A DNA stretch of 64,000 bases, from positions 8,174-72,173 of the forward strand of contig DASWHR010000027.1 in assembly GCA_036398095.1 (NCBI GenBank), read 5' to 3'. Each line of letters begins with the position of its first letter. Within the stretch, counting starts at the first letter, position 1. The position numbers were made by a program, and so were the translations under genes. The notes under the pieces were generated by a model. That model searched no databases. It saw only the letters and a list, made by a program, of their open reading frames with translations, and was not told the origin of the DNA. This document shows positions 30,323-64,000 of this stretch, one piece after another. This stretch comes from Actinomycetota bacterium (GTDB lineage: Bacteria > Actinomycetota > AC-67).

Positions 30323-30990
30323 CGGCCGTCGCGCTTGCGCTGGCGCTCGGCTCGTGCGGCGGCGGCGGGACGAAAAGCACCGACGCGCCGCTTGAGGGCG
30401 CGCAACTGGTGGTGGACGTCAAGGGCGACCACGCGAACGCGCTCAACGCCGACGGCGTGAAGCCGAAGAACCCGCCGGCCGCCGCCGACATCACCGGCGT
30501 GCGCCTGGACGCCGATACCGACTCGCTGACGGTCCGGATCGCGATCGGCGGCTCGCCGATGACGAACCTCGCCGCCGACTCGATGCAAGGACCGGCATGG
30601 TTCGCGCAGATCTGGGCCGACGCGATCTCGGCCACGCCCGCCTACTTCATGGCGATCGTCCGCGACGGCGAGGCGAAGGAGGAAGGCGGCACCATCACCG
30701 GCTGGCGGTTGTCGGTCTGCCCCGGCGTGGACGTGTGCGAGACTCCGGCCGAGGGAGCGACGCTCAAGATCACTGCGTCCGAAGTGCGGGCCGACATTCC
30801 GCTGACGCTGCTCTCCAATCTGAAGAATCCGTTCACGTGGGCGATGCTCTCGTACTGGAACGAGACGCAAGATCCGGTGCAGGCCCACAGCGACTGGGTG
30901 CCGGAAGCGGCGCGCCCCGGGCCCGGCGCGACCACCTACTCCGCGCCCGAGACTCGCGCGACCTTCCCGCCACAAGACCAAAAGAAATGA
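30307..30990 (+). CDS. lipoprotein, unknown function
   Basis: Lipobox LALGSCGGGG. The ATG at 30307 overlaps the end of the LLM gene by 16 bp. About 227 aa. Confidence 0.55.
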   Translation: MRAQVAAVALALALGSCGGGGTKSTDAPLEGAQLVVDVKGDHANALNADGVKPKNPPAAADITGVRLDADTDSLTVRIAIGGSPMTNLAADSMQGPAWFAQIWADAISATPAYFMAIVRDGEAKEEGGTITGWRLSVCPGVDVCETPAEGATLKITASEVRADIPLTLLSNLKNPFTWAMLSYWNETQDPVQAHSDWVPEAARPGPGATTYSAPETRATFPPQDQKK

Positions 30991-32147
30991 CCGACCGGCT
31001 GATCGTCGCCACCGGACTGTCCACCGACGCGGACGGCGTGGCGGCGGCGGCCGAAGCGGCCTCGGCGGCCGCGCGCGGCCTGAACGGCGCCTCGTGCGAT
31101 CTGGCTGCGATCTTCGTGTCGGCCGCGCACGCCGACGCGGCCGTCGAGATCGCCGCGGCGATCCACGTCGCGCTGCAGCCGGGCGCGCTGATCGGCGCCA
31201 CCGCCGGCACCGTCGCCGAAGGGGCGCGCGAAGTGGAGGATCGTCCGGCGATCGCGGTCTGGGCGGCGCATCTGCCCGGCACCACCGTCGAGCCGTTCTC
31301 GGTCGAGTTCACCGAAACGCCCGACGGTCCGACGTTCCTCGGCTGGCCGGCGCCGCCGGCCGACGCGGCCGTGATCGTGCTCGCCGACCCGTACACGGTT
31401 CCGGTCGACCGCCTCCTTTCGCGCGTCAACGACGAGCAACCCGGGCTGACCATCGTCGGCGGTCTTGCCTCCGGCGCATCGCGGCCGGGCGGACATCGCA
31501 TCTGGCAGGGCGACGAGGTCGCAAACGGCGGCGCCGCCGGCGTCGTGATTCGCGGCCGGGTCGGTGTGCGCGCGCTCGTGTCGCAAGGATGCCGCCCGAT
31601 CGGCACGCCGGCGACCGTCACGAATGCCGAGCGCAACCTGATCGTCGAGCTGGCCGGCCTTCCCCCGATCGAGCGTCTCCGCGACCTGTGGATCGAAGCC
31701 TCTCCCGACGACCGCGCCCTGATCCAGCGCGGCCTGCACATCGGCCGCGTCGTCGACGAATACAAGACCGAGTTCGAGCGCGGCGACTTCCTGATCCGAA
31801 ACGTGATGGGCGCCGACGAATCCACCGGCGCGATGGCCGTCGGGGATCTGGTCGGCGTCGGCGAAACTGTCCAATTCCATGTGCGCGACGCCGCGAGCGC
31901 GGATGAGGATCTGCGCAGGGCGGCCGCGTCGGTCGAGCCGCCGGCCGGCGCGATGCTGTTCACCTGCAACGGCCGCGGTTCGCATCTGTTCGGCGCGCCC
32001 GATCACGACGCCGGCGTGCTCGCCGCAGCCTGGCGGGCGCCGCTCGCCGGCATGAGTTGCTCGGGCGAGATCGGACCGGTGGGCGGCCGCGCCTTCCTGC
32101 ACGGCTTCACCGCATCGGTCGCGCTGTTCTATGACCGCACGTCGTAG
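30987..32147 (+). CDS. FIST-domain (FIST_N/FIST_C) sensory protein
   Basis: ATGA overlap with the upstream stop. About 386 aa. The architecture is consistent with FIST N and C domains. This is a family-level call from memory. Confidence 0.5.
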   Translation: MTDRLIVATGLSTDADGVAAAAEAASAAARGLNGASCDLAAIFVSAAHADAAVEIAAAIHVALQPGALIGATAGTVAEGAREVEDRPAIAVWAAHLPGTTVEPFSVEFTETPDGPTFLGWPAPPADAAVIVLADPYTVPVDRLLSRVNDEQPGLTIVGGLASGASRPGGHRIWQGDEVANGGAAGVVIRGRVGVRALVSQGCRPIGTPATVTNAERNLIVELAGLPPIERLRDLWIEASPDDRALIQRGLHIGRVVDEYKTEFERGDFLIRNVMGADESTGAMAVGDLVGVGETVQFHVRDAASADEDLRRAAASVEPPAGAMLFTCNGRGSHLFGAPDHDAGVLAAAWRAPLAGMSCSGEIGPVGGRAFLHGFTASVALFYDRTS

Positions 32148-32163
32148 GCGGGGTGCGGCGGAT

Positions 32164-32790
32164 ATGCTGCCCGCGATGCTGCTGTTTCTCATACGACACG
32201 CGATGACGCCGGTCACCGGCGTGAAGCTCGCCGGCTGGTCGCCCGTTCCGCTGTCCGCAGAGGGCGTGCGGCAGGCCGGCGCGATGGCGCAACGCTTCGC
32301 GTCGATTCCGCTGGATGCGATCTACTCGTCGCCGGTCGAGCGTGCCGTTCAAACCGCCAAGCCGCTCGCGGCCGTCAAGAAGATGCGGCTGCGAATCCGG
32401 CCGGGCCTCGGCGAGGTCCGCTACGGCGACTGGGAAGGCCGCCCGCTCAAACAGCTCGCCAAGACGCAGCATTGGCGCGACGTGATCGCCCATCCCTCCG
32501 AGGGACGTTTCCCCGGCGGCGAAGCGCTGCGCGAGACGTCGGCGCGTGTCGTGGCGGCCACGGCCGAAGTCGCCGCCGCCCACCCGAACGGTGCGGCCGC
32601 CATCGTGTCGCACGCCGATGGGATCAAGATGATCCTCGCCCACTATGCCGGCATCCACCTCGACCTGTACGCGCGGCTTGCGATCGGTCCGGCGTCGGTG
32701 AGCGCCGTGTGGGTCGGCAACGGCGCCCCGCGAATCCTGAAGATCAACGACAGCGGCTCGCTCGACGAGCTTGCCCCGAGGAAGCGATGA
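32164..32790 (+). CDS. histidine-phosphatase (PGAM-like) family putative phosphomutase (MSMEG_4193-like)
   Basis: N-terminal LFLIRHAMT resembles the RHG catalytic motif. About 208 aa. It lies immediately upstream of DUF3090 and SCO1664-family genes, as in the conserved actinobacterial triad. Confidence 0.6.
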   Translation: MLPAMLLFLIRHAMTPVTGVKLAGWSPVPLSAEGVRQAGAMAQRFASIPLDAIYSSPVERAVQTAKPLAAVKKMRLRIRPGLGEVRYGDWEGRPLKQLAKTQHWRDVIAHPSEGRFPGGEALRETSARVVAATAEVAAAHPNGAAAIVSHADGIKMILAHYAGIHLDLYARLAIGPASVSAVWVGNGAPRILKINDSGSLDELAPRKR

Positions 32791-33356
32791 GCACATCTTT
32801 CGAATTGGATCCCGTATCGCGCATCACCGCCGGCGCCGTCGGCGAGCCCGGCAACCGCACCTTCTACATTCAGGCGCGAAAGGATGAGCTGCTGGTCACG
32901 CTGCTGGCCGAGAAGCAGCAAGTGCAAGTCCTGGCGACGACGCTCGCGCAACTGCTGGAAACGCTCGATCCGATCGACGACGAAGGCGTCCCGCCGGCAT
33001 CGGATGATCTCGAGTTGGAAGATCCGCTGCTTCCCGAATGGCGGATCGGCCCGATGGCGATCGAAGTCGAAGAAGACACCGGCATGATGGTCTTCGTCGC
33101 CGAAGAGGTTCCGGCCGGCGACGACGCCGACGACGAGGACGAAGCCGGCATCGCAGCCTCCATCGAAGAGGAGACCGTCGCCGATCTCGCGCACGCTCGC
33201 TTCGTCGCGACCCGCGCGCAGATGAAAGCGCTTGCCGAGCATGCCGAGATCGTCTGTTCGGCCGGCCGGCCTCGGTGCCAATTGTGCGGCTTCCCGATGG
33301 ACCCCGACGGGCACGTATGTCCCGCGACGAACGGTCATCGTTCCCCCGAGTTGTGA
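32787..33356 (+). CDS. DUF3090-domain protein
   Basis: ATGA overlap with the upstream gene. There is an acidic middle region and a C-terminal CQLCGFPMDPDGHVCP zinc-ribbon-like motif typical of DUF3090. Confidence 0.6.
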   Translation: MSTSFELDPVSRITAGAVGEPGNRTFYIQARKDELLVTLLAEKQQVQVLATTLAQLLETLDPIDDEGVPPASDDLELEDPLLPEWRIGPMAIEVEEDTGMMVFVAEEVPAGDDADDEDEAGIAASIEEETVADLAHARFVATRAQMKALAEHAEIVCSAGRPRCQLCGFPMDPDGHVCPATNGHRSPEL

Positions 33357-34069
33357 GCGAGGCGACCGACTCCGCCGCGATCCGCATCCTGGAACGCGGT
33401 GCAATCGAAGTCCTGGGAGCGTTGCCGAACGCCTCCAACCACACGTTTCTGGCTCGTGTCACGGATGGGGACGCCGCCGTGCGTGCCGTCTACAAGCCGC
33501 GCGACGGCGAATCGCCGCTGTGGGACTTCCCCGACGGGACGCTCTGGCAGCGCGAGATCGCCGCGTGGCACGTGTCGGAGCGGCTCGGCTTTGGGTTCGT
33601 GCCGCCCACGCTCGCGCGCGAGGGGCCCTACGGGATCGGCTCGGTGCAACTGTTCGTCGACCACGATCCGAGCATGCATTACCTCAACATGCCGCCCGAG
33701 TTCGACGATCTGTTCCGCCTGGTCTGCCTGTTCGATCTGCTGATCAACAACGCCGACCGCAAGGCCGGGCATTGTCTGCTGGATCCGAAGACGAGCCGTA
33801 TCTGGATGGTGGACCACGGGGTGTCGTTCCACGAGGACACGAAGGTGCGGACGGTGATCTGGGATTTCGCCGGTGAGCCGATGCCGCCGGTCGGGCTCGA
33901 CGCGGTGCGGCGGTTCTGCGCCGATGTTGCGGCCGACCCGGGGCCGCTGGAGGCGCTGCTGTCGCGGGGCGAGCTGGTCGCGCTCGGGCGTCGCGCGGAA
34001 CGGATCGTCGCGGCCGGCGTGTTTCCCGACCCGGGTCCCGGCCGCCCCTTCCCTTGGCCGCCGGTCTAG
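33317..34069 (+). CDS. SCO1664-family protein (TIGR03843-like)
   Basis: HTFLARVTDGDAAVRAVYKP...LFDLLINNADRKAGHCL...WMVDHGVSFH is characteristic of the SCO1664 family. Start is ATG 33317 or GTG 33353; the GTG overlaps the upstream stop (GTGA). Confidence 0.6.
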   Translation: MSRDERSSFPRVVSEATDSAAIRILERGAIEVLGALPNASNHTFLARVTDGDAAVRAVYKPRDGESPLWDFPDGTLWQREIAAWHVSERLGFGFVPPTLAREGPYGIGSVQLFVDHDPSMHYLNMPPEFDDLFRLVCLFDLLINNADRKAGHCLLDPKTSRIWMVDHGVSFHEDTKVRTVIWDFAGEPMPPVGLDAVRRFCADVAADPGPLEALLSRGELVALGRRAERIVAAGVFPDPGPGRPFPWPPV

Positions 34070-34074
34070 ACCCT

Positions 34075-35106
34075 CTACAGCGAGATCGTCAGCTCGACGA
34101 CGGGAACGTCGACGACCAGGATCGGGTCGTCGGAATTCAGCGGGATCTCGATCAGCGGCTTCGGCGGCTCGGCCGGCTTCCGCGTGGATGCCTTCGGCGT
34201 GGTGGCGGCCGGCTGCTTGACGGTCGCGCTACGCGCGGCTCGCGGCTTCGGCGCGACCGGGGCCGGCGCGGCCGGCGCGGCCGGAACTTCGGCGCCAAAC
34301 TCGGCGCCAAATTCGCCGCCGGTCGGGTGGCCGACGCTCAGCACGTCAAGGTTCAGCGCGCTCAGAAGATTGCGGACCAGATTCACGACCGAGCCGACCA
34401 GATCGGTGGGGGTCGGAGCGGGCGAGGCCGCGGACGGCGCGGACGTTCGGGCGCCGAATATGGGCGTGATTCCGCCGGTCGGCTGCGCGACCGGCGCGGC
34501 CGTCGCAGCGGGTGCGGCCGGGTTCGGCCGCCGGGTCTCGCGGATTCCCAGAACCTGCGTGCGTCGCGTGGGTTGCGTGCCGGGCGTCGTCGCCGTTGGA
34601 CGCACGGACGGCGTCGCCTGCTCGCCGTTCGTCGGCGGCGTGCTCGGCGGGAACGTGTTGGCGACGGTCGGGATCGGAGTGATCGCCGTGCCGCCCCCCG
34701 GAACGCGGTCGCCGCGCGTCGTCGTGAAGAACACCGTTGCCACCAGCACCAGCACCGCAGCGGCCGCCGCGCCGCCGATCTGCCACAGGCGTGCCGCGTC
34801 GCCGCGTCCGAGCAAGCGGCTCATCAGTCGCGCGCGCATGTCGCCCGGCAGTGGCCGAGGCGCGTCCAGGTCGTCGAAGTGAGCCGCGAAGCGCTCGTTG
34901 TGCTCTTCGCCGGTCAATACGTCGGTCAGGCGCGTGCGCATGTCCGTCGGGAGGCGCTTGGGGCGGTCGAGGATGTAGAGCAAGTTTTCGTCGGCCGGCG
35001 CGAGCGTGCTCGCGACCAGCGCGCCTTCCAGGCGCTCGCGCATCCGCGCAGGAATCGGTCGCGGCGCGTCGGCACCGCGAAGCAGCGTCGCCGTCCGGTC
35101 AGCCAC
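34075..35106 (-). CDS. putative anti-sigma factor: repeat-containing cytoplasmic domain, one TM, Pro/Thr/Ala-rich ectodomain
   Basis: Its start overlaps the ECF sigma stop by 8 bp. The N-terminus has three copies of P[RK]x[LI]PxxMRxRLxxxL. The TM is LWQIGGAAAAAVLVLVATVFF. The rest is low-complexity PT-rich sequence ending ...ILVVDVPVVELTISL. Confidence 0.5.
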   Translation of the reverse strand: MADRTATLLRGADAPRPIPARMRERLEGALVASTLAPADENLLYILDRPKRLPTDMRTRLTDVLTGEEHNERFAAHFDDLDAPRPLPGDMRARLMSRLLGRGDAARLWQIGGAAAAAVLVLVATVFFTTTRGDRVPGGGTAITPIPTVANTFPPSTPPTNGEQATPSVRPTATTPGTQPTRRTQVLGIRETRRPNPAAPAATAAPVAQPTGGITPIFGARTSAPSAASPAPTPTDLVGSVVNLVRNLLSALNLDVLSVGHPTGGEFGAEFGAEVPAAPAAPAPVAPKPRAARSATVKQPAATTPKASTRKPAEPPKPLIEIPLNSDDPILVVDVPVVELTISL

Positions 35107-35698
35107 GGTTCGGCTCCAGTTGCCGGCGCATCGCGTCCCGGGCGCGTTGGAGCAGCGACTGGATCTGCACGCGCGGCCGCCCGACTTCGGCGGCGATCTG
35201 CTCGACGGAGTACTCGTCGAGATACTTCAGCACGAGCACCTGCCGGTGCAACGGAGCAAGGTTCCCGAGCGCGCGCAAGACCTCGTCGCGGATGTCGATG
35301 ACGACGTGCGGCTCATAGGGCCGCGGCGCCGGCTGGTTGGCGACCGCCGTCTGCTTTCGTTCGCGCTCCCAGTGACGAGCGATCCGGCGGCGGGCGATGG
35401 TGCACAGCCATGTGTTGAGCGCCGCCTCCCCTCGGAACGAGTCGGCGGAGCGCACTCCTTCGATGAGCGTCTCTTGCATGATGTCCTCGGCGATGTCCTC
35501 ATTCCCTCCGACACGGGCAAGCACGAATCCGTACACAGAAGGAAGATGCTCATCCATCAGCGTCCGGACTGAGTCCGGGTCGCCGGCGGCTACGGCACGC
35601 AACAGATCGGCCTCCCGAGAAGCTGATCCGACCAATTCCATGCGTTCCCCCGTAGCTTCGTGGTCGTCCGAGGACGAAATCAACCGGTGTGTCGCCAT
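35099..35698 (-). CDS. ECF-type sigma-70 family sigma factor
   Basis: Region 2 (LMDEHLPSVYGFVLARVGGNEDIAEDIMQETLIEG) and region 4 (HRQVLVLKYLDEYSVEQIAAEVGRPRVQIQSLLQRARDAM). Start is ATG 35698 or 35641. The listed ORF extends further as noise. Confidence 0.85.
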   Translation of the reverse strand: MATHRLISSSDDHEATGERMELVGSASREADLLRAVAAGDPDSVRTLMDEHLPSVYGFVLARVGGNEDIAEDIMQETLIEGVRSADSFRGEAALNTWLCTIARRRIARHWERERKQTAVANQPAPRPYEPHVVIDIRDEVLRALGNLAPLHRQVLVLKYLDEYSVEQIAAEVGRPRVQIQSLLQRARDAMRRQLEPNRG

Positions 35699-35830
35699 TC
35701 CAGCAAACCTCTCGCCGTTGTGCCAGGAAAGGTTCGGCCCGCCGTTCTGGTTTTCCTGTTGATACAGACGTGAACCTGCCCGGCCGGCGGAGTATTTTTT
35801 GGCCGGGAAATGTCGCACCGCGCCCGCTAC

Positions 35831-35866
35831 CGCTACAATTCGGGCACGCACGGGTGGCGAGTCGGG
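35831..35866 (+). promoter_or_regulatory. candidate sigma-70-type promoter (-35 TGTCGC / -10 TACAAT) in the divergent intergenic region
   Basis: TACAAT hexamer with a 17-nt spacer from a weak -35, oriented toward the 36024 gene. This is sequence-only support. Confidence 0.3.
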
Positions 35867-36023
35867 GAGGAGCGGCAAACCGGCAGGGACGCTGCTTTCG
35901 AAATATTCCGCCATCGACTGGAACCTGAGCGGTTGATAAGAGCATCCTCATAGCACGAAGGGGCTAGAAAGCGGTAGCCCAAATGGGAGGGTGCCGCACG
36001 ATCACGGTCCGGGGGGACACAAG

Positions 36024-37385
36024 ATGAAGAAGTTGCGTTGGACTCGCCGGTTGACGGCGAGCATGGCGCTGGCGGCCGTAGCGATCGTTGCTACCGGTCC
36101 CGGGGCTTCCGCGGCAGTCGACACCTACGCCGCACAGGCCAGCGGTACCACGCTGAGCCTTTCCGTTTCTCTGCCGCTCGGCGACGTCGTCGCCGGGATT
36201 CTCGGCAACGCCGGTGTGAAGGGGAACACGATCTCCGAGCGGATCTCCTTCTCGAACGCCACCGCCGACGTCACCTCGACGCAGTCGAAGGGTTCGGCGC
36301 TCGGTCAGGTGTTCTTCGGAACGCTCGACCCGGTCATCCTTCAGGTCTCGCGCCTGGTGGGCTACTCGAAGGACAAGCTGCCGGAGGTCTCCTCCAGCGT
36401 GACCAGCGCATCGGCCGACGGTGTCGCCGACAGCAAGAAGGACGCAATCGCGGCGGTTGACATCGGCCCGATCCACGTTGGCGTCGGTGAGGTCGAGTCC
36501 ACGGCCAAGCGTGCCGGTCGCCTCGTCTCGACGAAGTCGGCCGCTCGCCTGCTGGGCATCAAGGTCGACCTGGCGTCCGTCTTGAGCGAGGGCGCGATCG
36601 CGGACCTGCTCAAGCCGGTGACCGACCTGCTCGACGGCACAGGCAGCCAGCCCGGTCTGATCGACCAGCTCAACGGCTTGCTCGACGGCGTCGAGGACAC
36701 CCTCAAGGGTGCCGGCCTCGACGTGGACCTGACGATCCCGGCGATCAAGGACCTGCTGTCCAAGCCGCTCGTCAACGTGGGCATCATCGAGTCGGTTAGC
36801 GAGACGGGCTTCAACGGCGCGTCGCGCTTCGCCAAGGGCGTCACCCGCCTGGCGAACGTCGACTTGCTCGGTGGCTTCATCCACCTCGACGCGATCAACA
36901 TCGAGTCGTTCGCGTCGATCGACGGCACGGCCACGGGCGCACTCGCCTCAGGCATCCAGCGCATCGTCGGCCTGAAGGTCGGCGGCAACATCGTCAACCT
37001 GAACACCGGCTCGCTGCAGGTGCTCGGCAAGACGATCCAGATGCCGGTGGACCTGGCGCAGTTGCTCAACGTGACGGTGGACGCGCTCGGCCTGAAGGTT
37101 CAGGTCGCGCAGAAGCCCGAGATCGTCCGCACCGCCACGCACGCTCGTGCCGCGACGTCGTCGCTGCACGTCGGTCTGGCTCCGAAGCTCCTCTCGGGCG
37201 CGCCGCTGTTCTCGATCGCGCTCGACGGTCCGGCTTCGGTCGCGGATGTCCGCGGCGGAAACGTCCTGGGCGTCAAGGAAGTTCGCATCCCCACGACGGG
37301 TGTGAGCGACACCGCGATGCTGCTGGTCGGCATGATGCTGGTCGGTCTTGCCATCGGCGCTCGCAAGTTCGCGCTCAGCAAGTAA
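36024..37385 (+). CDS. large secreted surface protein with C-terminal TM anchor (non-canonical IPTTG sorting-like motif)
   Basis: GGGGGGA RBS. Signal peptide MKKLRWTRRLTASMALAAVAIVATGPGASAA. About 450 aa rich in V/L/G/K. The C-terminus is ...RIPTTGVSDTAMLLVGMMLVGLAIGARKFALSK. The gene is divergent from an ECF sigma. Confidence 0.6.
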   Translation: MKKLRWTRRLTASMALAAVAIVATGPGASAAVDTYAAQASGTTLSLSVSLPLGDVVAGILGNAGVKGNTISERISFSNATADVTSTQSKGSALGQVFFGTLDPVILQVSRLVGYSKDKLPEVSSSVTSASADGVADSKKDAIAAVDIGPIHVGVGEVESTAKRAGRLVSTKSAARLLGIKVDLASVLSEGAIADLLKPVTDLLDGTGSQPGLIDQLNGLLDGVEDTLKGAGLDVDLTIPAIKDLLSKPLVNVGIIESVSETGFNGASRFAKGVTRLANVDLLGGFIHLDAINIESFASIDGTATGALASGIQRIVGLKVGGNIVNLNTGSLQVLGKTIQMPVDLAQLLNVTVDALGLKVQVAQKPEIVRTATHARAATSSLHVGLAPKLLSGAPLFSIALDGPASVADVRGGNVLGVKEVRIPTTGVSDTAMLLVGMMLVGLAIGARKFALSK

Positions 37386-63032: not shown

Positions 63033-63295
63033 AGCGCTCCGCTGTCCACTGGGGACGGCGGGAACTCGACCAAACTCCTACCCGAGATTTGGGTTGGTGT
63101 TTGGTCGCTGTCTGCGCCTTGAAAACCGCATAGCGAGGACACGCGATTCGATCCGGGCCGGAAGAGCTTTCGGGTTCGACCGGACCGGGGGAACGCAAGT
63201 GAGAGCGGGCACCCTTTTGTAACGCCTTGTTAGAGATCAGCACCGACGGCAACCAAGGAGCTTCGGCCCCGAGGAAGCCGGCGGTGAGAAACCTC

Positions 63296-64000
<705 letters not shown>

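What the first reader, a model, noticed from the sequence alone, without database searches (positions are those of the whole stretch)
34075..35698. ECF sigma with an atypical anti-sigma: triple P[RK]xLPxxMRxRL repeat and Pro/Thr-rich ectodomain
The downstream, overlapping (8 bp) partner lacks the zinc HxxxCxxC anti-sigma motif. Instead it has three ~30-aa repeats: PRPIPARMRERLEGAL, RPKRLPTDMRTRLTDVL and PRPLPGDMRARLMSRL. These precede one TM and a low-complexity PT-rich tail. I do not recognise this repeat as a described anti-sigma domain.
Basis: partly seen in the sequence, partly recalled or inferred. Interest (0 to 1): 0.55.

Follow-up and report, generated by a model that had tools for sequence, protein, structure and literature searches.

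The report
Repeat-built anti-sigma partner of ECF sigma
An alternative sigma factor gene is tightly coupled to a membrane protein whose inner part is two or three copies of one short proline-capped helix instead of a known anti-sigma domain; it is probably an undescribed type of anti-sigma factor, common in uncultured Acidimicrobiia.

Summary
An ECF sigma (35099..35641, minus strand; the true start is MELVGS, not the ATG at 35698) overlaps by 8 bp a 343-aa protein (34075..35106). That protein has three copies of P[RK]x[LI]PxxMRxRL at residues 15, 49 and 83, then one TM, then a Pro/Ala/Thr-rich tail. It has no cysteine. It is not a one-off. In 86 related loci the same sigma clade is followed by an overlapping gene, and all 63 partners long enough to judge carry 2-3 copies of a 22-aa unit (G-[LIV]-D-x-P-R-P-L-P-x-x-L-R-x-R-L-E-x-A-L-L-A), a basic stretch, one TM and interchangeable outer domains. 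No Pfam, NCBIfam, PDB-sequence or Foldseek match to an anti-sigma domain reaches significance. The only trace is a weak, in-register resemblance of the last repeat plus TM to helix 4 plus TM of RskA-type class I anti-sigmas. AlphaFold gives confident helices but no fixed fold. A conserved two-block promoter-like motif lies before the sigma gene and before a divergent surface-protein gene. Best reading: an autoregulated ECF sigma held by a single-pass anti-sigma whose repeated helices wrap the sigma. The anti-sigma role is inferred. It is a new variant of a known kind, of moderate interest.

The parts
35099..35641 (-). ECF (group 4) sigma factor, 180 aa, start MELVGS
   Evidence: Pfam Sigma70_r2 plus r4_2 and NCBIfam sigma70-ECF. 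There are 818 homologs with E<=1e-10, most about 180 aa, named from Acidimicrobiales/Actinomycetota MAGs. The ATG at 35641 was read.
35657..35685 (-). Promoter-like two-block motif GGTTGAT-N16-CACGAA upstream of the sigma gene (putative autoregulated ECF promoter), followed by a GGGGGAA Shine-Dalgarno sequence
   Evidence: The motif cCGGTTGAT-N15-16-CAC[TCG]AA lies 32-55 nt (a few up to 95 nt) before the sigma start in 37 of 79 related loci. The PWM score is 31.2 here. There are exactly 2 matches in the 64-kb window against 0.00 expected.
34075..35106 (-). Partner protein, 343 aa: putative single-pass (N-in) anti-sigma factor, translationally coupled to the sigma by an 8-bp overlap
   Evidence: ORF; junction GTGGCTGA. 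A start codon lies at -8 in 69 of 80 metagenome loci and the rest have 4-14-nt overlaps. Orthologs P0121-P0128, L006 and L007.
35011..35076 (-). Repeat 1 (aa 11-32, GADAPRPIPARMRERLEGALVA)
   Evidence: Repeat HMM 30.8 bits, iE 3e-10; AF2 helix 20-34 preceded by a Pro loop.
34909..34974 (-). Repeat 2 (aa 45-66, ILDRPKRLPTDMRTRLTDVLTG); the middle repeat, present only in some lineages
   Evidence: Repeat HMM 29.2 bits; AF2 helix 54-65. The middle repeat is absent or degenerate in most family members.
34807..34869 (-). Repeat 3 (aa 80-100, LDAPRPLPGDMRARLMSRLLG); the membrane-proximal repeat
   Evidence: Repeat HMM 27.9 bits; AF2 helix 88-100. hhalign aligns it in register with RskA helix 4 (P=0.005, probability 7%).
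34723..34785 (-). Transmembrane helix (aa 108-128, WQIGGAAAAAVLVLVATVFFT), preceded by basic residues; the Ala-rich start is nearly invariant
   Evidence: Hydropathy scan and flanks; AF2 helix 103-130; A115 invariant and A116 at least 90% across the family.
34078..34722 (-). Extracytoplasmic tail (aa 129-343): Pro/Ala/Thr-rich with three conserved islands (VLGxKxxR, amphipathic LxSVxxLVxxLL, C-terminal ...[ST]xSL)
   Evidence: Composition; alignment of 8 orthologs.
35931..35959 (+). Second copy of the promoter-like motif (GGTTGAT-N16-CACGAA), facing the divergent gene
   Evidence: The same divergent pair is present in syntenic loci L006 and L007.
36024..37385 (+). Divergent candidate target gene: secreted protein with a signal peptide, a choice-of-anchor P domain and a C-terminal IPTTG + TM + basic tail (sortase-type signal)
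   Evidence: ORF; NCBIfam NF040603 at 31.9 bits against a cutoff of 27. The N-terminus is conserved in L006 and L007; ATG at 36024. The sortase-signal reading comes from the sequence and general knowledge and was not tested.

Best explanation
This is an autoregulated ECF sigma / anti-sigma module of an uncultured Acidimicrobiia-type actinomycete. The partner is a single-pass membrane protein with its N-terminus in the cytoplasm. Its cytoplasmic part is not a globular anti-sigma domain. It is a flexible string of two (here three) copies of one unit: a short helix, a D-x-P-R-P-L-P loop, and a 12-15-residue amphipathic helix L-R-x-R-L-E-x-x-L-L. I propose that these helices fold onto the sigma factor and wrap it. 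The membrane-proximal repeat would lie on sigma-2, like helix 4 of class I anti-sigma domains, and the first repeat on sigma-4, like helix 1 of class I or the first helix of class II CnrY. This would block binding to core RNA polymerase and hold the sigma at the membrane. The extra middle repeat of this lineage would add a contact. An envelope signal sensed through the variable outer domain would lead to proteolysis of the partner, probably regulated intramembrane proteolysis that exposes the Ala-rich TM start. The freed sigma would then transcribe its own operon and the divergent surface-protein gene from GGTTGAT-N16-CAC[TCG]AA promoters. Shown: the gene pair, the coupling, the repeats, their conservation and association with the sigma clade, the predicted helices, the lack of a fixed fold, and the motif pair. 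Inferred: binding to the sigma, which repeat binds which domain, proteolytic release, and promoter function.
For: Strict +1 position with an overlapping start: [AG]TG-NNT-GA in 7 of 7 context loci, in 69 of 80 metagenome loci, and other 4-14-nt overlaps in the rest. 63 of 63 partners with at least 100 aa carry the repeat, while the outer domains vary: Pro/Thr tail, TIG, Peripla_BP_6, beta-propeller. A constant cytoplasmic module plus a variable sensor is the usual anti-sigma layout (PMC7826278). The repeat is strongly conserved: D3 96%, R6 97%, L8 87%, R15 92%, L16 91%, E17 85%, L20 88%. Linkers between repeats vary from 20 to 84 aa, and the last repeat usually ends 5-10 aa before the basic stretch and TM. 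AF2 with an MSA gives pLDDT 82 but pTM 0.28, meaning confident helices without tertiary packing, as expected for a fold-on-binding segment. The dual sigma-4/sigma-2 helix interface is common to class I, II and III anti-sigmas (PMC7406223). There are weak in-register matches of the last repeat plus TM to RskA-type models. A conserved promoter-like motif pair lies in the divergent intergenic region, also in L006 and L007.
Against: The first and last repeats share one consensus, including the polar residues. That is not expected if they read the non-homologous sigma-2 and sigma-4 surfaces, unless those residues serve helix capping and intrahelical salt bridges. Covariation on 54 pairs shows no sigma-2/sigma-4 asymmetry. 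The similarity to RskA is not significant (hhalign probability 7%; NCBIfam 15-25 bits against cutoffs of 100-225). The promoter motif lacks the AAC typical of many ECF -35 elements, and its function is untested.
Confidence: 0.55

Rival explanations
1. Multivalent sequestration: each repeat is an equivalent docking site for the same surface of the sigma factor, so one membrane protein holds two or three sigma molecules (or a sigma dimer) rather than wrapping one.
For: The first, middle and last repeats have the same consensus, including charged positions. Linkers are long and variable, 20-84 aa. The copy number varies between lineages, 2 or 3. AF2 shows no inter-repeat packing. Within-protein repeats are slightly more alike than between proteins (0.367 vs 0.329, permutation p about 0.002, not corrected for phylogeny).
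Against: The coupled, overlapping genes suggest roughly equimolar synthesis. [quoted passage not shown] The conserved polar residues (R13/E17 at i, i+4; Pro at the helix start) could be structural rather than contact residues.
Confidence: 0.2
2. It is simply a very diverged class I (RskA-like) or class II anti-sigma domain. The membrane-proximal repeat would be helix 4, and the first repeat the remnant or a duplicate that replaced helices 1-3, so nothing is mechanistically new.
For: 5-6 of 39 family members hit NF052375 and NF010501 at E of 1e-5 to 1e-2. Those models are RskA-type: my recalled Mtb RskA scores 162 bits and RslA 59 bits. hhalign aligns LPGDMRARLMSRLL...TM with RskA PPAHLRTAILDATK...TM in the expected register. 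Two-helix class II anti-sigmas exist (PMC7406223).
Against: The scores are 4-10 times below the curated cutoffs and include the TM and Ala-rich composition. hhalign probability is 7%, and the repeat alone gives nothing. Profile positions for helices 1-3 never match. No PDB anti-sigma (RseA, ChrR, RslA, RskA, RsdA, RsiW, CnrY, NepR, RsbN) appears at E<=10 with either the domain or the repeat profile. No known anti-sigma domain is an internal sequence repeat, as far as I know.
Confidence: 0.15
3. It is not an anti-sigma factor. It would be a co-transcribed membrane protein that is a target, a positive regulator, or a scaffold using the PRPLP-helix units to bind another cytoplasmic protein.
For: There is no direct evidence for sigma binding. 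Casas-Pastor et al. caution that not all putative +1 anti-sigma factors need function as such (PMC7826278). The P-R-P-L-P stretch resembles proline-rich ligand motifs (from general knowledge, not tested).
Against: The association with one sigma clade across very different neighbourhoods is near-perfect. The translational coupling is conserved. The layout of a constant cytoplasmic module plus variable sensor is that of anti-sigma factors. There is weak similarity to anti-sigma models only.
Confidence: 0.1

Closest known systems
RskA-type class I anti-sigma factors (M. tuberculosis RskA/SigK; NCBIfam NF052375, NF010501)
   Same: Encoded directly after an actinobacterial ECF sigma. Single-pass, N-in. 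A Pro-started amphipathic helix (P-x-x-L-R-x-x-[IL]-L) a few residues before a basic stretch and an Ala-rich TM. Weak in-register alignment of this segment. In class I, that helix binds sigma regions 2.1/2.2 (PMC7406223).
   Different: The helix 1-3 bundle is absent (those profile positions never match, and AF2 gives no bundle). The helix unit is repeated 2-3 times with one consensus. The RskA C-terminal domain is absent. Scores are far below the family cutoffs.
Class II anti-sigma domain (CnrY of Cupriavidus metallidurans; NepR)
   Same: A minimal cytoplasmic segment made of separate helices that embrace the outside of the sigma, with the first helix on sigma-4 and the second on sigma-2 (PMC7406223, PMC8103513). 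The two-repeat core of this family has the same count of binding helices, and it shows no stable fold of its own.
   Different: No sequence similarity (no PDB hit at E<=10). As far as I know, CnrY and NepR helices are not repeats of each other. Here each helix has a conserved G-x-D-x-P-R-P-L-P cap, and a third copy can occur.
RsdA (anti-sigma-D, M. tuberculosis; Pfam PF16751)
   Same: An actinobacterial single-pass anti-sigma with a long Pro/Thr/Ser/Ala-rich extracytoplasmic tail (from my recollection of the sequence).
   Different: No match of the N-terminal domain to PF16751 or to RsdA chains in the PDB. My recalled RsdA sequence matched no NCBIfam model, so I could not validate it.
RsbN (class III anti-sigma of BldN, Streptomyces venezuelae)
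   Same: An actinobacterial membrane-anchored anti-sigma with a small all-helical sigma-binding part that was unrecognisable by sequence before its structure was solved (PMC8103513, PMC7406223).
   Different: No sequence similarity. RsbN has three non-repeated helices.

Membership tests
ECF (group 4) sigma-70 factors | Only regions sigma-2 and sigma-4, about 180-200 aa | tested here: met
   Pfam Sigma70_r2 plus Sigma70_r4_2; TIGR02937 at 89.9 bits against a cutoff of 42.9; no named subfamily model reaches its cutoff.
Class I anti-sigma domain (ASDI: RseA, ChrR, RslA, RskA, RsiW) | N-terminal bundle of helices 1-3 that binds sigma-4 | tested here: not met
   No Pfam zf-HC2, RskA or RseA_N hit in 39 members. 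NCBIfam and hhalign matches never cover profile positions 1-30. The AF2 model has no bundle, pTM 0.28.
Class I anti-sigma domain, zinc-binding (ZAS) subgroup | H-x3-C-x2-C motif | tested here: not met
   Zero cysteines in the 343-aa protein.
Class I anti-sigma domain | Fourth helix, after a flexible linker, that binds sigma regions 2.1/2.2 | tested here: inconclusive
   The last repeat plus TM aligns in register with RskA 66-108 (hhalign P=0.005, probability 7%). NF052375 and NF010501 score 15-25 bits against cutoffs of 100 and 225. Binding is not testable here.
Class II anti-sigma domain (CnrY, NepR) | Short cytoplasmic segment of two helices that wrap sigma-4 and sigma-2 | tested here: inconclusive
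   Two conserved helix units are present in all members and there is no autonomous fold. There is no sequence similarity to any PDB chain, and the complex could not be modelled.
Class III anti-sigma domain (RsbN) | Sequence or fold similarity to RsbN's three-helix sigma-binding part | tested here: not met
   No PDB sequence hit at E<=10. Foldseek against the PDB gives 0 matches, though the model is not globular, so the fold test is weak.
RsdA family (PF16751) | RsdA SigD-binding N-terminal domain | tested here: not met
   No Pfam hit at E<=0.1 for the window protein or at E<=0.01 for 39 relatives.
Membrane-bound anti-sigma factors in general | Encoded next to and co-transcribed with the sigma; cytoplasmic N-terminus, single TM, extracytoplasmic sensor | tested here: met
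   The +1 position with an overlapping start across 86 loci. A basic stretch before the single TM. Variable outer domains.
Membrane-bound anti-sigma factors in general | Binds and inhibits its cognate sigma | not testable with these tools
Covariation on 54 pairs is uninformative.

The most novel reading that the evidence does not exclude
A fourth structural class of ECF anti-sigma module. In it, one short Pro-capped amphipathic helix unit, repeated two or three times on flexible linkers, replaces the non-homologous helices of classes I-III. [quoted passage not shown] The module is the standard regulator of a large ECF clade in Acidimicrobiia and is currently annotated only as 'hypothetical protein'.
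Probability: 0.4. Interest if true: 0.65.

Novelty: new variant of a known kind. Interest (0 to 1): 0.47.

Why it matters
ECF sigma/anti-sigma pairs are the third major mode of bacterial signal transduction, and they are used as orthogonal switches in synthetic biology. Only three structural classes of ECF anti-sigma domain are defined. A sigma-binding module built from repeats of one about 22-aa unit would be the simplest one known. It would allow dissection of what a single helix contributes to sigma inhibition, and it raises a concrete stoichiometry question: 1:1 wrapping or 1:2-3 sequestration. It would also let hundreds of 'hypothetical proteins' in Acidimicrobiia, an abundant but poorly cultured soil and water lineage, be annotated. 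With the predicted promoter GGTTGAT-N16-CAC[TCG]AA, it gives a first handle on their envelope-stress regulons. Against this, most ECF groups already have group-specific anti-sigmas unrecognised by Pfam (PMC7826278), so the existence of one more is not surprising in itself.

Tried and rejected
(1) The word-index search with the N-terminal 139 aa found nothing. The exhaustive phmmer search was needed to find relatives.

(2) The scan of GTDB genome contigs with the sigma found only 26-28% identical ECFs from unrelated phyla, so it gave no context.

(3) Single-sequence AF2 was uninformative (pLDDT 41).

The afdb50 library was unavailable.

(5) Foldseek against the PDB gave 0 hits. This means little for a non-globular model.

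(6) P0130 and P0132, multi-stretch hits, are HEAT-like and unrelated tandem-domain proteins. I rejected them as false positives; P0147 was not inspected.

(7) The PDB hits of the repeat profile (Psb27 RPLPEKLKARLEQ, Mtb AroG PLPTDLRTRLDAALA; E 0.2-0.7) are chance matches to similar short segments in unrelated proteins.

(8) MI/APC covariation between repeat columns and sigma columns on 54 pairs showed no sigma-2/sigma-4 preference. It is underpowered.

(9) The within-protein versus between-protein repeat similarity test gave only a small excess and is confounded by phylogeny.

(10) The NF033761 GltJ hit (E 0.0036, 16 bits against a cutoff of 450) comes from low-complexity composition.

(11) The literature holds no paper with 'PRPLP' and anti-sigma and no description of a repeat-built anti-sigma. 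The ECF Hub supplements are not held, so I could not determine the ECF group number of this sigma.
Full report
**Observation**

The region holds two overlapping minus-strand ORFs. The upstream one (35099..35914 as the longest ORF) carries Sigma70_r2 and Sigma70_r4_2 and passes the NCBIfam sigma70-ECF model (89.9 bits against a cutoff of 42.9), but no named subfamily model. The downstream ORF (34075..35106, GTG start, 343 aa) overlaps the sigma stop by 8 bp (GTGGCTGA). It matches no Pfam family at E<=0.1, and only a compositional NCBIfam hit.

The three units align with scores of 40-56, against 18-21 (sd about 4) for shuffles, and 0 of 2000 shuffles reach them. The protein has no cysteine. It has one hydrophobic segment (108-128) preceded by arginines, and a tail that is 17% Pro, 15% Ala and 12% Thr.

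One correction is needed. Homologous sigmas are about 180 aa, and a conserved promoter-like element lies at 35657-35685, downstream of the ATG at 35698. The sigma most likely starts at 35641 (MELVGS).

**It is a family, not a curiosity**

The word-index protein search found nothing. An exhaustive phmmer search of 1.84 billion cluster representatives found 27 proteins. One is the same protein called from Met22, which cuts repeat 1 (P0121). Seven are orthologs with the same Pro/Thr-rich tail. The more distant ones have the same N-terminal motif two to four times, one TM, and different outer parts.

The sigma has 818 relatives at E<=1e-10. The closest come from Actinomycetota, Acidimicrobiales and Acidimicrobiia MAGs. 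Seven context look-ups showed a gene starting exactly 8 bp before the sigma's end every time. The partners were 232-779 aa and carried nothing recognisable, TIG, Peripla_BP_6 or a beta-propeller. The junction [AG]TG-NNT-GA was seen in all seven loci for which DNA was available.

A scan of metagenome contigs with the sigma profile gave 80 more loci. In 69 of them a start codon sits at -8, and the rest have 4-, 11- or 14-nt overlaps. A repeat HMM built from the family finds the unit in 63 of 63 partners with at least 100 residues available: 51 have two copies, 10 have three, and 2 have one strict copy plus degenerate ones. No other copy exists in the window.

**Anatomy of the repeat**

The 22-residue consensus is G-[LIV]-D-x-P-R-P-L-P-x-x-L-R-x-R-L-E-x-A-L-L-A. 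Conservation is D3 96%, R6 97%, L8 87%, R15 92%, L16 91%, E17 85% and L20 88% over 136 distinct repeats. Spacing between repeats ranges from 20 to 84 residues. The last repeat usually ends 5-10 residues before a basic stretch and the TM.

The domain alignment shows that a first and a last repeat are universal, while a middle one is present or degenerate only in some lineages, including the window's. The first and last repeats share one consensus, polar positions included.

AF2 without an alignment was useless (pLDDT 41). With 39 sequences it gave pLDDT 82 but pTM 0.28. Confident helices lie at 2-8, 20-34, 39-46, 54-65, 67-80 and 88-100, with the TM at 103-130, and there is no fixed packing. 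Each unit is thus a short helix, a Pro loop and a longer helix, and the domain behaves as beads on a string.

**Comparison with known anti-sigma domains**

The tests below found no significant match:

- Pfam on 39 members finds only outer-domain families (TIG, Peripla_BP_6).
- Profiles of the whole cytoplasmic domain and of the single repeat find no anti-sigma chain in the PDB even at E<=10.
- Foldseek against the PDB finds nothing, though this is a weak test for a non-globular model.
- Sources name relatives only 'hypothetical protein'.

NCBIfam gives the only lead. 5-6 of 39 members hit NF052375 'anti-sigma factor' and NF010501 'putative anti-sigmaE protein' at 15-25 bits, against cutoffs of 100 and 225. 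Sequences of M. tuberculosis RskA and RslA that I recalled from memory score 162 and 59 bits on NF052375. This validates the recalled RskA sequence and shows that these models represent RskA-type class I anti-sigmas.

The family's hits cover only the repeat(s) plus TM, against profile positions of about 31-141. hhalign aligns LPGDMRARLMSRLL...TM with RskA PPAHLRTAILDATK...TM (residues 66-108), which I take to be helix 4 plus TM, with P=0.005 and probability 7%. The repeat alone gives nothing. Helices 1-3 of the class I domain are absent. Membership in class I is therefore not met. A remote relationship, or convergence, of the repeat with helix 4 remains possible.

**Literature frame**

Casas-Pastor et al. 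2021 state that 114 of 157 ECF groups have a putative anti-sigma, usually at +1 and usually with one TM. Most match no Pfam anti-sigma domain and most are group-specific (PMC7826278). So the absence of a match is ordinary.

Casas-Pastor et al. 2020 show that classes I, II and III share a dual interface: one helix on sigma-4, and one on sigma regions 2.1/2.2. In class II CnrY this is done by just two helices that wrap the sigma (PMC7406223; also PMC8103513). No paper in the library combines 'PRPLP' with anti-sigma or describes a repeat-built anti-sigma.

**Surroundings**

A two-block motif, cCGGTTGAT-N15-16-CAC[TCG]AA, lies 32-55 nt (a few up to 95 nt) upstream of the sigma start in 37 of 79 related loci and is followed by a Shine-Dalgarno sequence. 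In the window, GGTTGAT-N14-17-CACNAA occurs exactly twice (0.00 expected). Both copies are in the 350-bp divergent intergenic region: 35657-35685 (-) before the sigma, and 35931-35959 (+) before the divergent gene.

That divergent gene (36024..37385) encodes a protein with a signal peptide, a choice-of-anchor P domain and a C-terminal IPTTG-TM-basic tail. The gene and the second motif copy are conserved in the syntenic loci L006 and L007. This fits an autoregulated ECF sigma with a neighbouring target gene. Promoter function is inferred.

**Mechanism**

Best-supported reading (0.55): the partner is a single-pass, N-in anti-sigma. Its repeated helices fold onto the sigma, with the membrane-proximal repeat on sigma-2, the first repeat on sigma-4, and the middle repeat as a lineage-specific extra contact. 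Release would follow proteolysis triggered through the variable outer domain. The nearly invariant Ala-rich start of the TM is compatible with site-2 cleavage and Clp recognition, as known for RsiW and RseA. That last point rests on general knowledge and was not tested.

The main difficulty is that the repeats share one consensus although sigma-2 and sigma-4 are unrelated. The conserved polar residues might be structural (R13-E17 at i, i+4; Pro at the helix start). Alternatively, each repeat may dock the same site of a separate sigma molecule (rival, 0.2).

Two further rivals remain: a diverged class I/II domain (0.15), and not an anti-sigma at all (0.1).

**Verdict**

It is a new variant of a known kind: a widespread, unannotated anti-sigma-type module built from tandem copies of one helix unit. 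Interest is moderate (0.47). Unrecognised group-specific anti-sigmas are common, but an internally repeated sigma-binding module with a single consensus is unusual, and it poses a clear, testable stoichiometry question.

Noticed in passing
window 35657-35685 (-) and 35931-35959 (+): Two copies of GGTTGAT-N16-CACGAA face outward in the sigma/divergent-gene intergenic region (0.00 expected in 64 kb). The same pair is present in L006 and L007. This is a candidate family-specific ECF promoter and gives a first regulon member.
   Followed up: partly
window 36024-37385 (+): The divergent gene encodes a secreted protein with a choice-of-anchor P domain (NF040603, 31.9 bits against a cutoff of 27). 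Its C-terminal IPTTG + hydrophobic segment + basic tail looks like a sortase (LPXTG-type) sorting signal. The longest ORF starts at the GTG at 35991, but orthologs start at the MKK... Met.
   Followed up: partly
window 35663-35678 (-) and equivalent spacers in L013-L092: The spacer between the two promoter-like blocks often contains a short GC-rich palindrome (window CGTCC-TCG-GACG; many loci CCCGG-N-CCGGG). Its meaning is unknown.
   Followed up: no
window 30597-34069 (+): A FIST-domain protein is followed by an MSMEG_4193-type histidine phosphatase (32131..32790), DUF3090/TIGR03847 (32787..33356) and an SCO1664-family protein (ends at 34069). This is an actinobacterial conserved cluster converging on the partner gene with a 5-bp gap, and it is syntenic in L006 and L007.
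   Followed up: partly
window 63295-64000 (+): The 5' 701 positions of a bacterial 16S rRNA gene run off the window end (Rfam RF00177, 650 bits). They could be used to place the organism.
   Followed up: no
P0121 (public gene call of the same protein): The public gene call starts at Met22 and so removes repeat 1, and it differs by one residue (R to S near the C-terminus). Automatic start calling probably hides the first repeat in other family members too.
   Followed up: no
L010 1699-3984 and L011 1854-3989: In two distant loci a Beta_propel (PF09826) protein is encoded just upstream of the sigma. In L008 the same domain is fused to the partner itself. This suggests the sensor domain can be fused or separate.
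   Followed up: no
sigma family alignment A1 (window sigma residue 80): An invariant Cys lies in the W-L-C-x-I-A-R-R-R segment of region 2 across 34 sigma homologs at 51-83% identity. Its significance is unknown.
   Followed up: no
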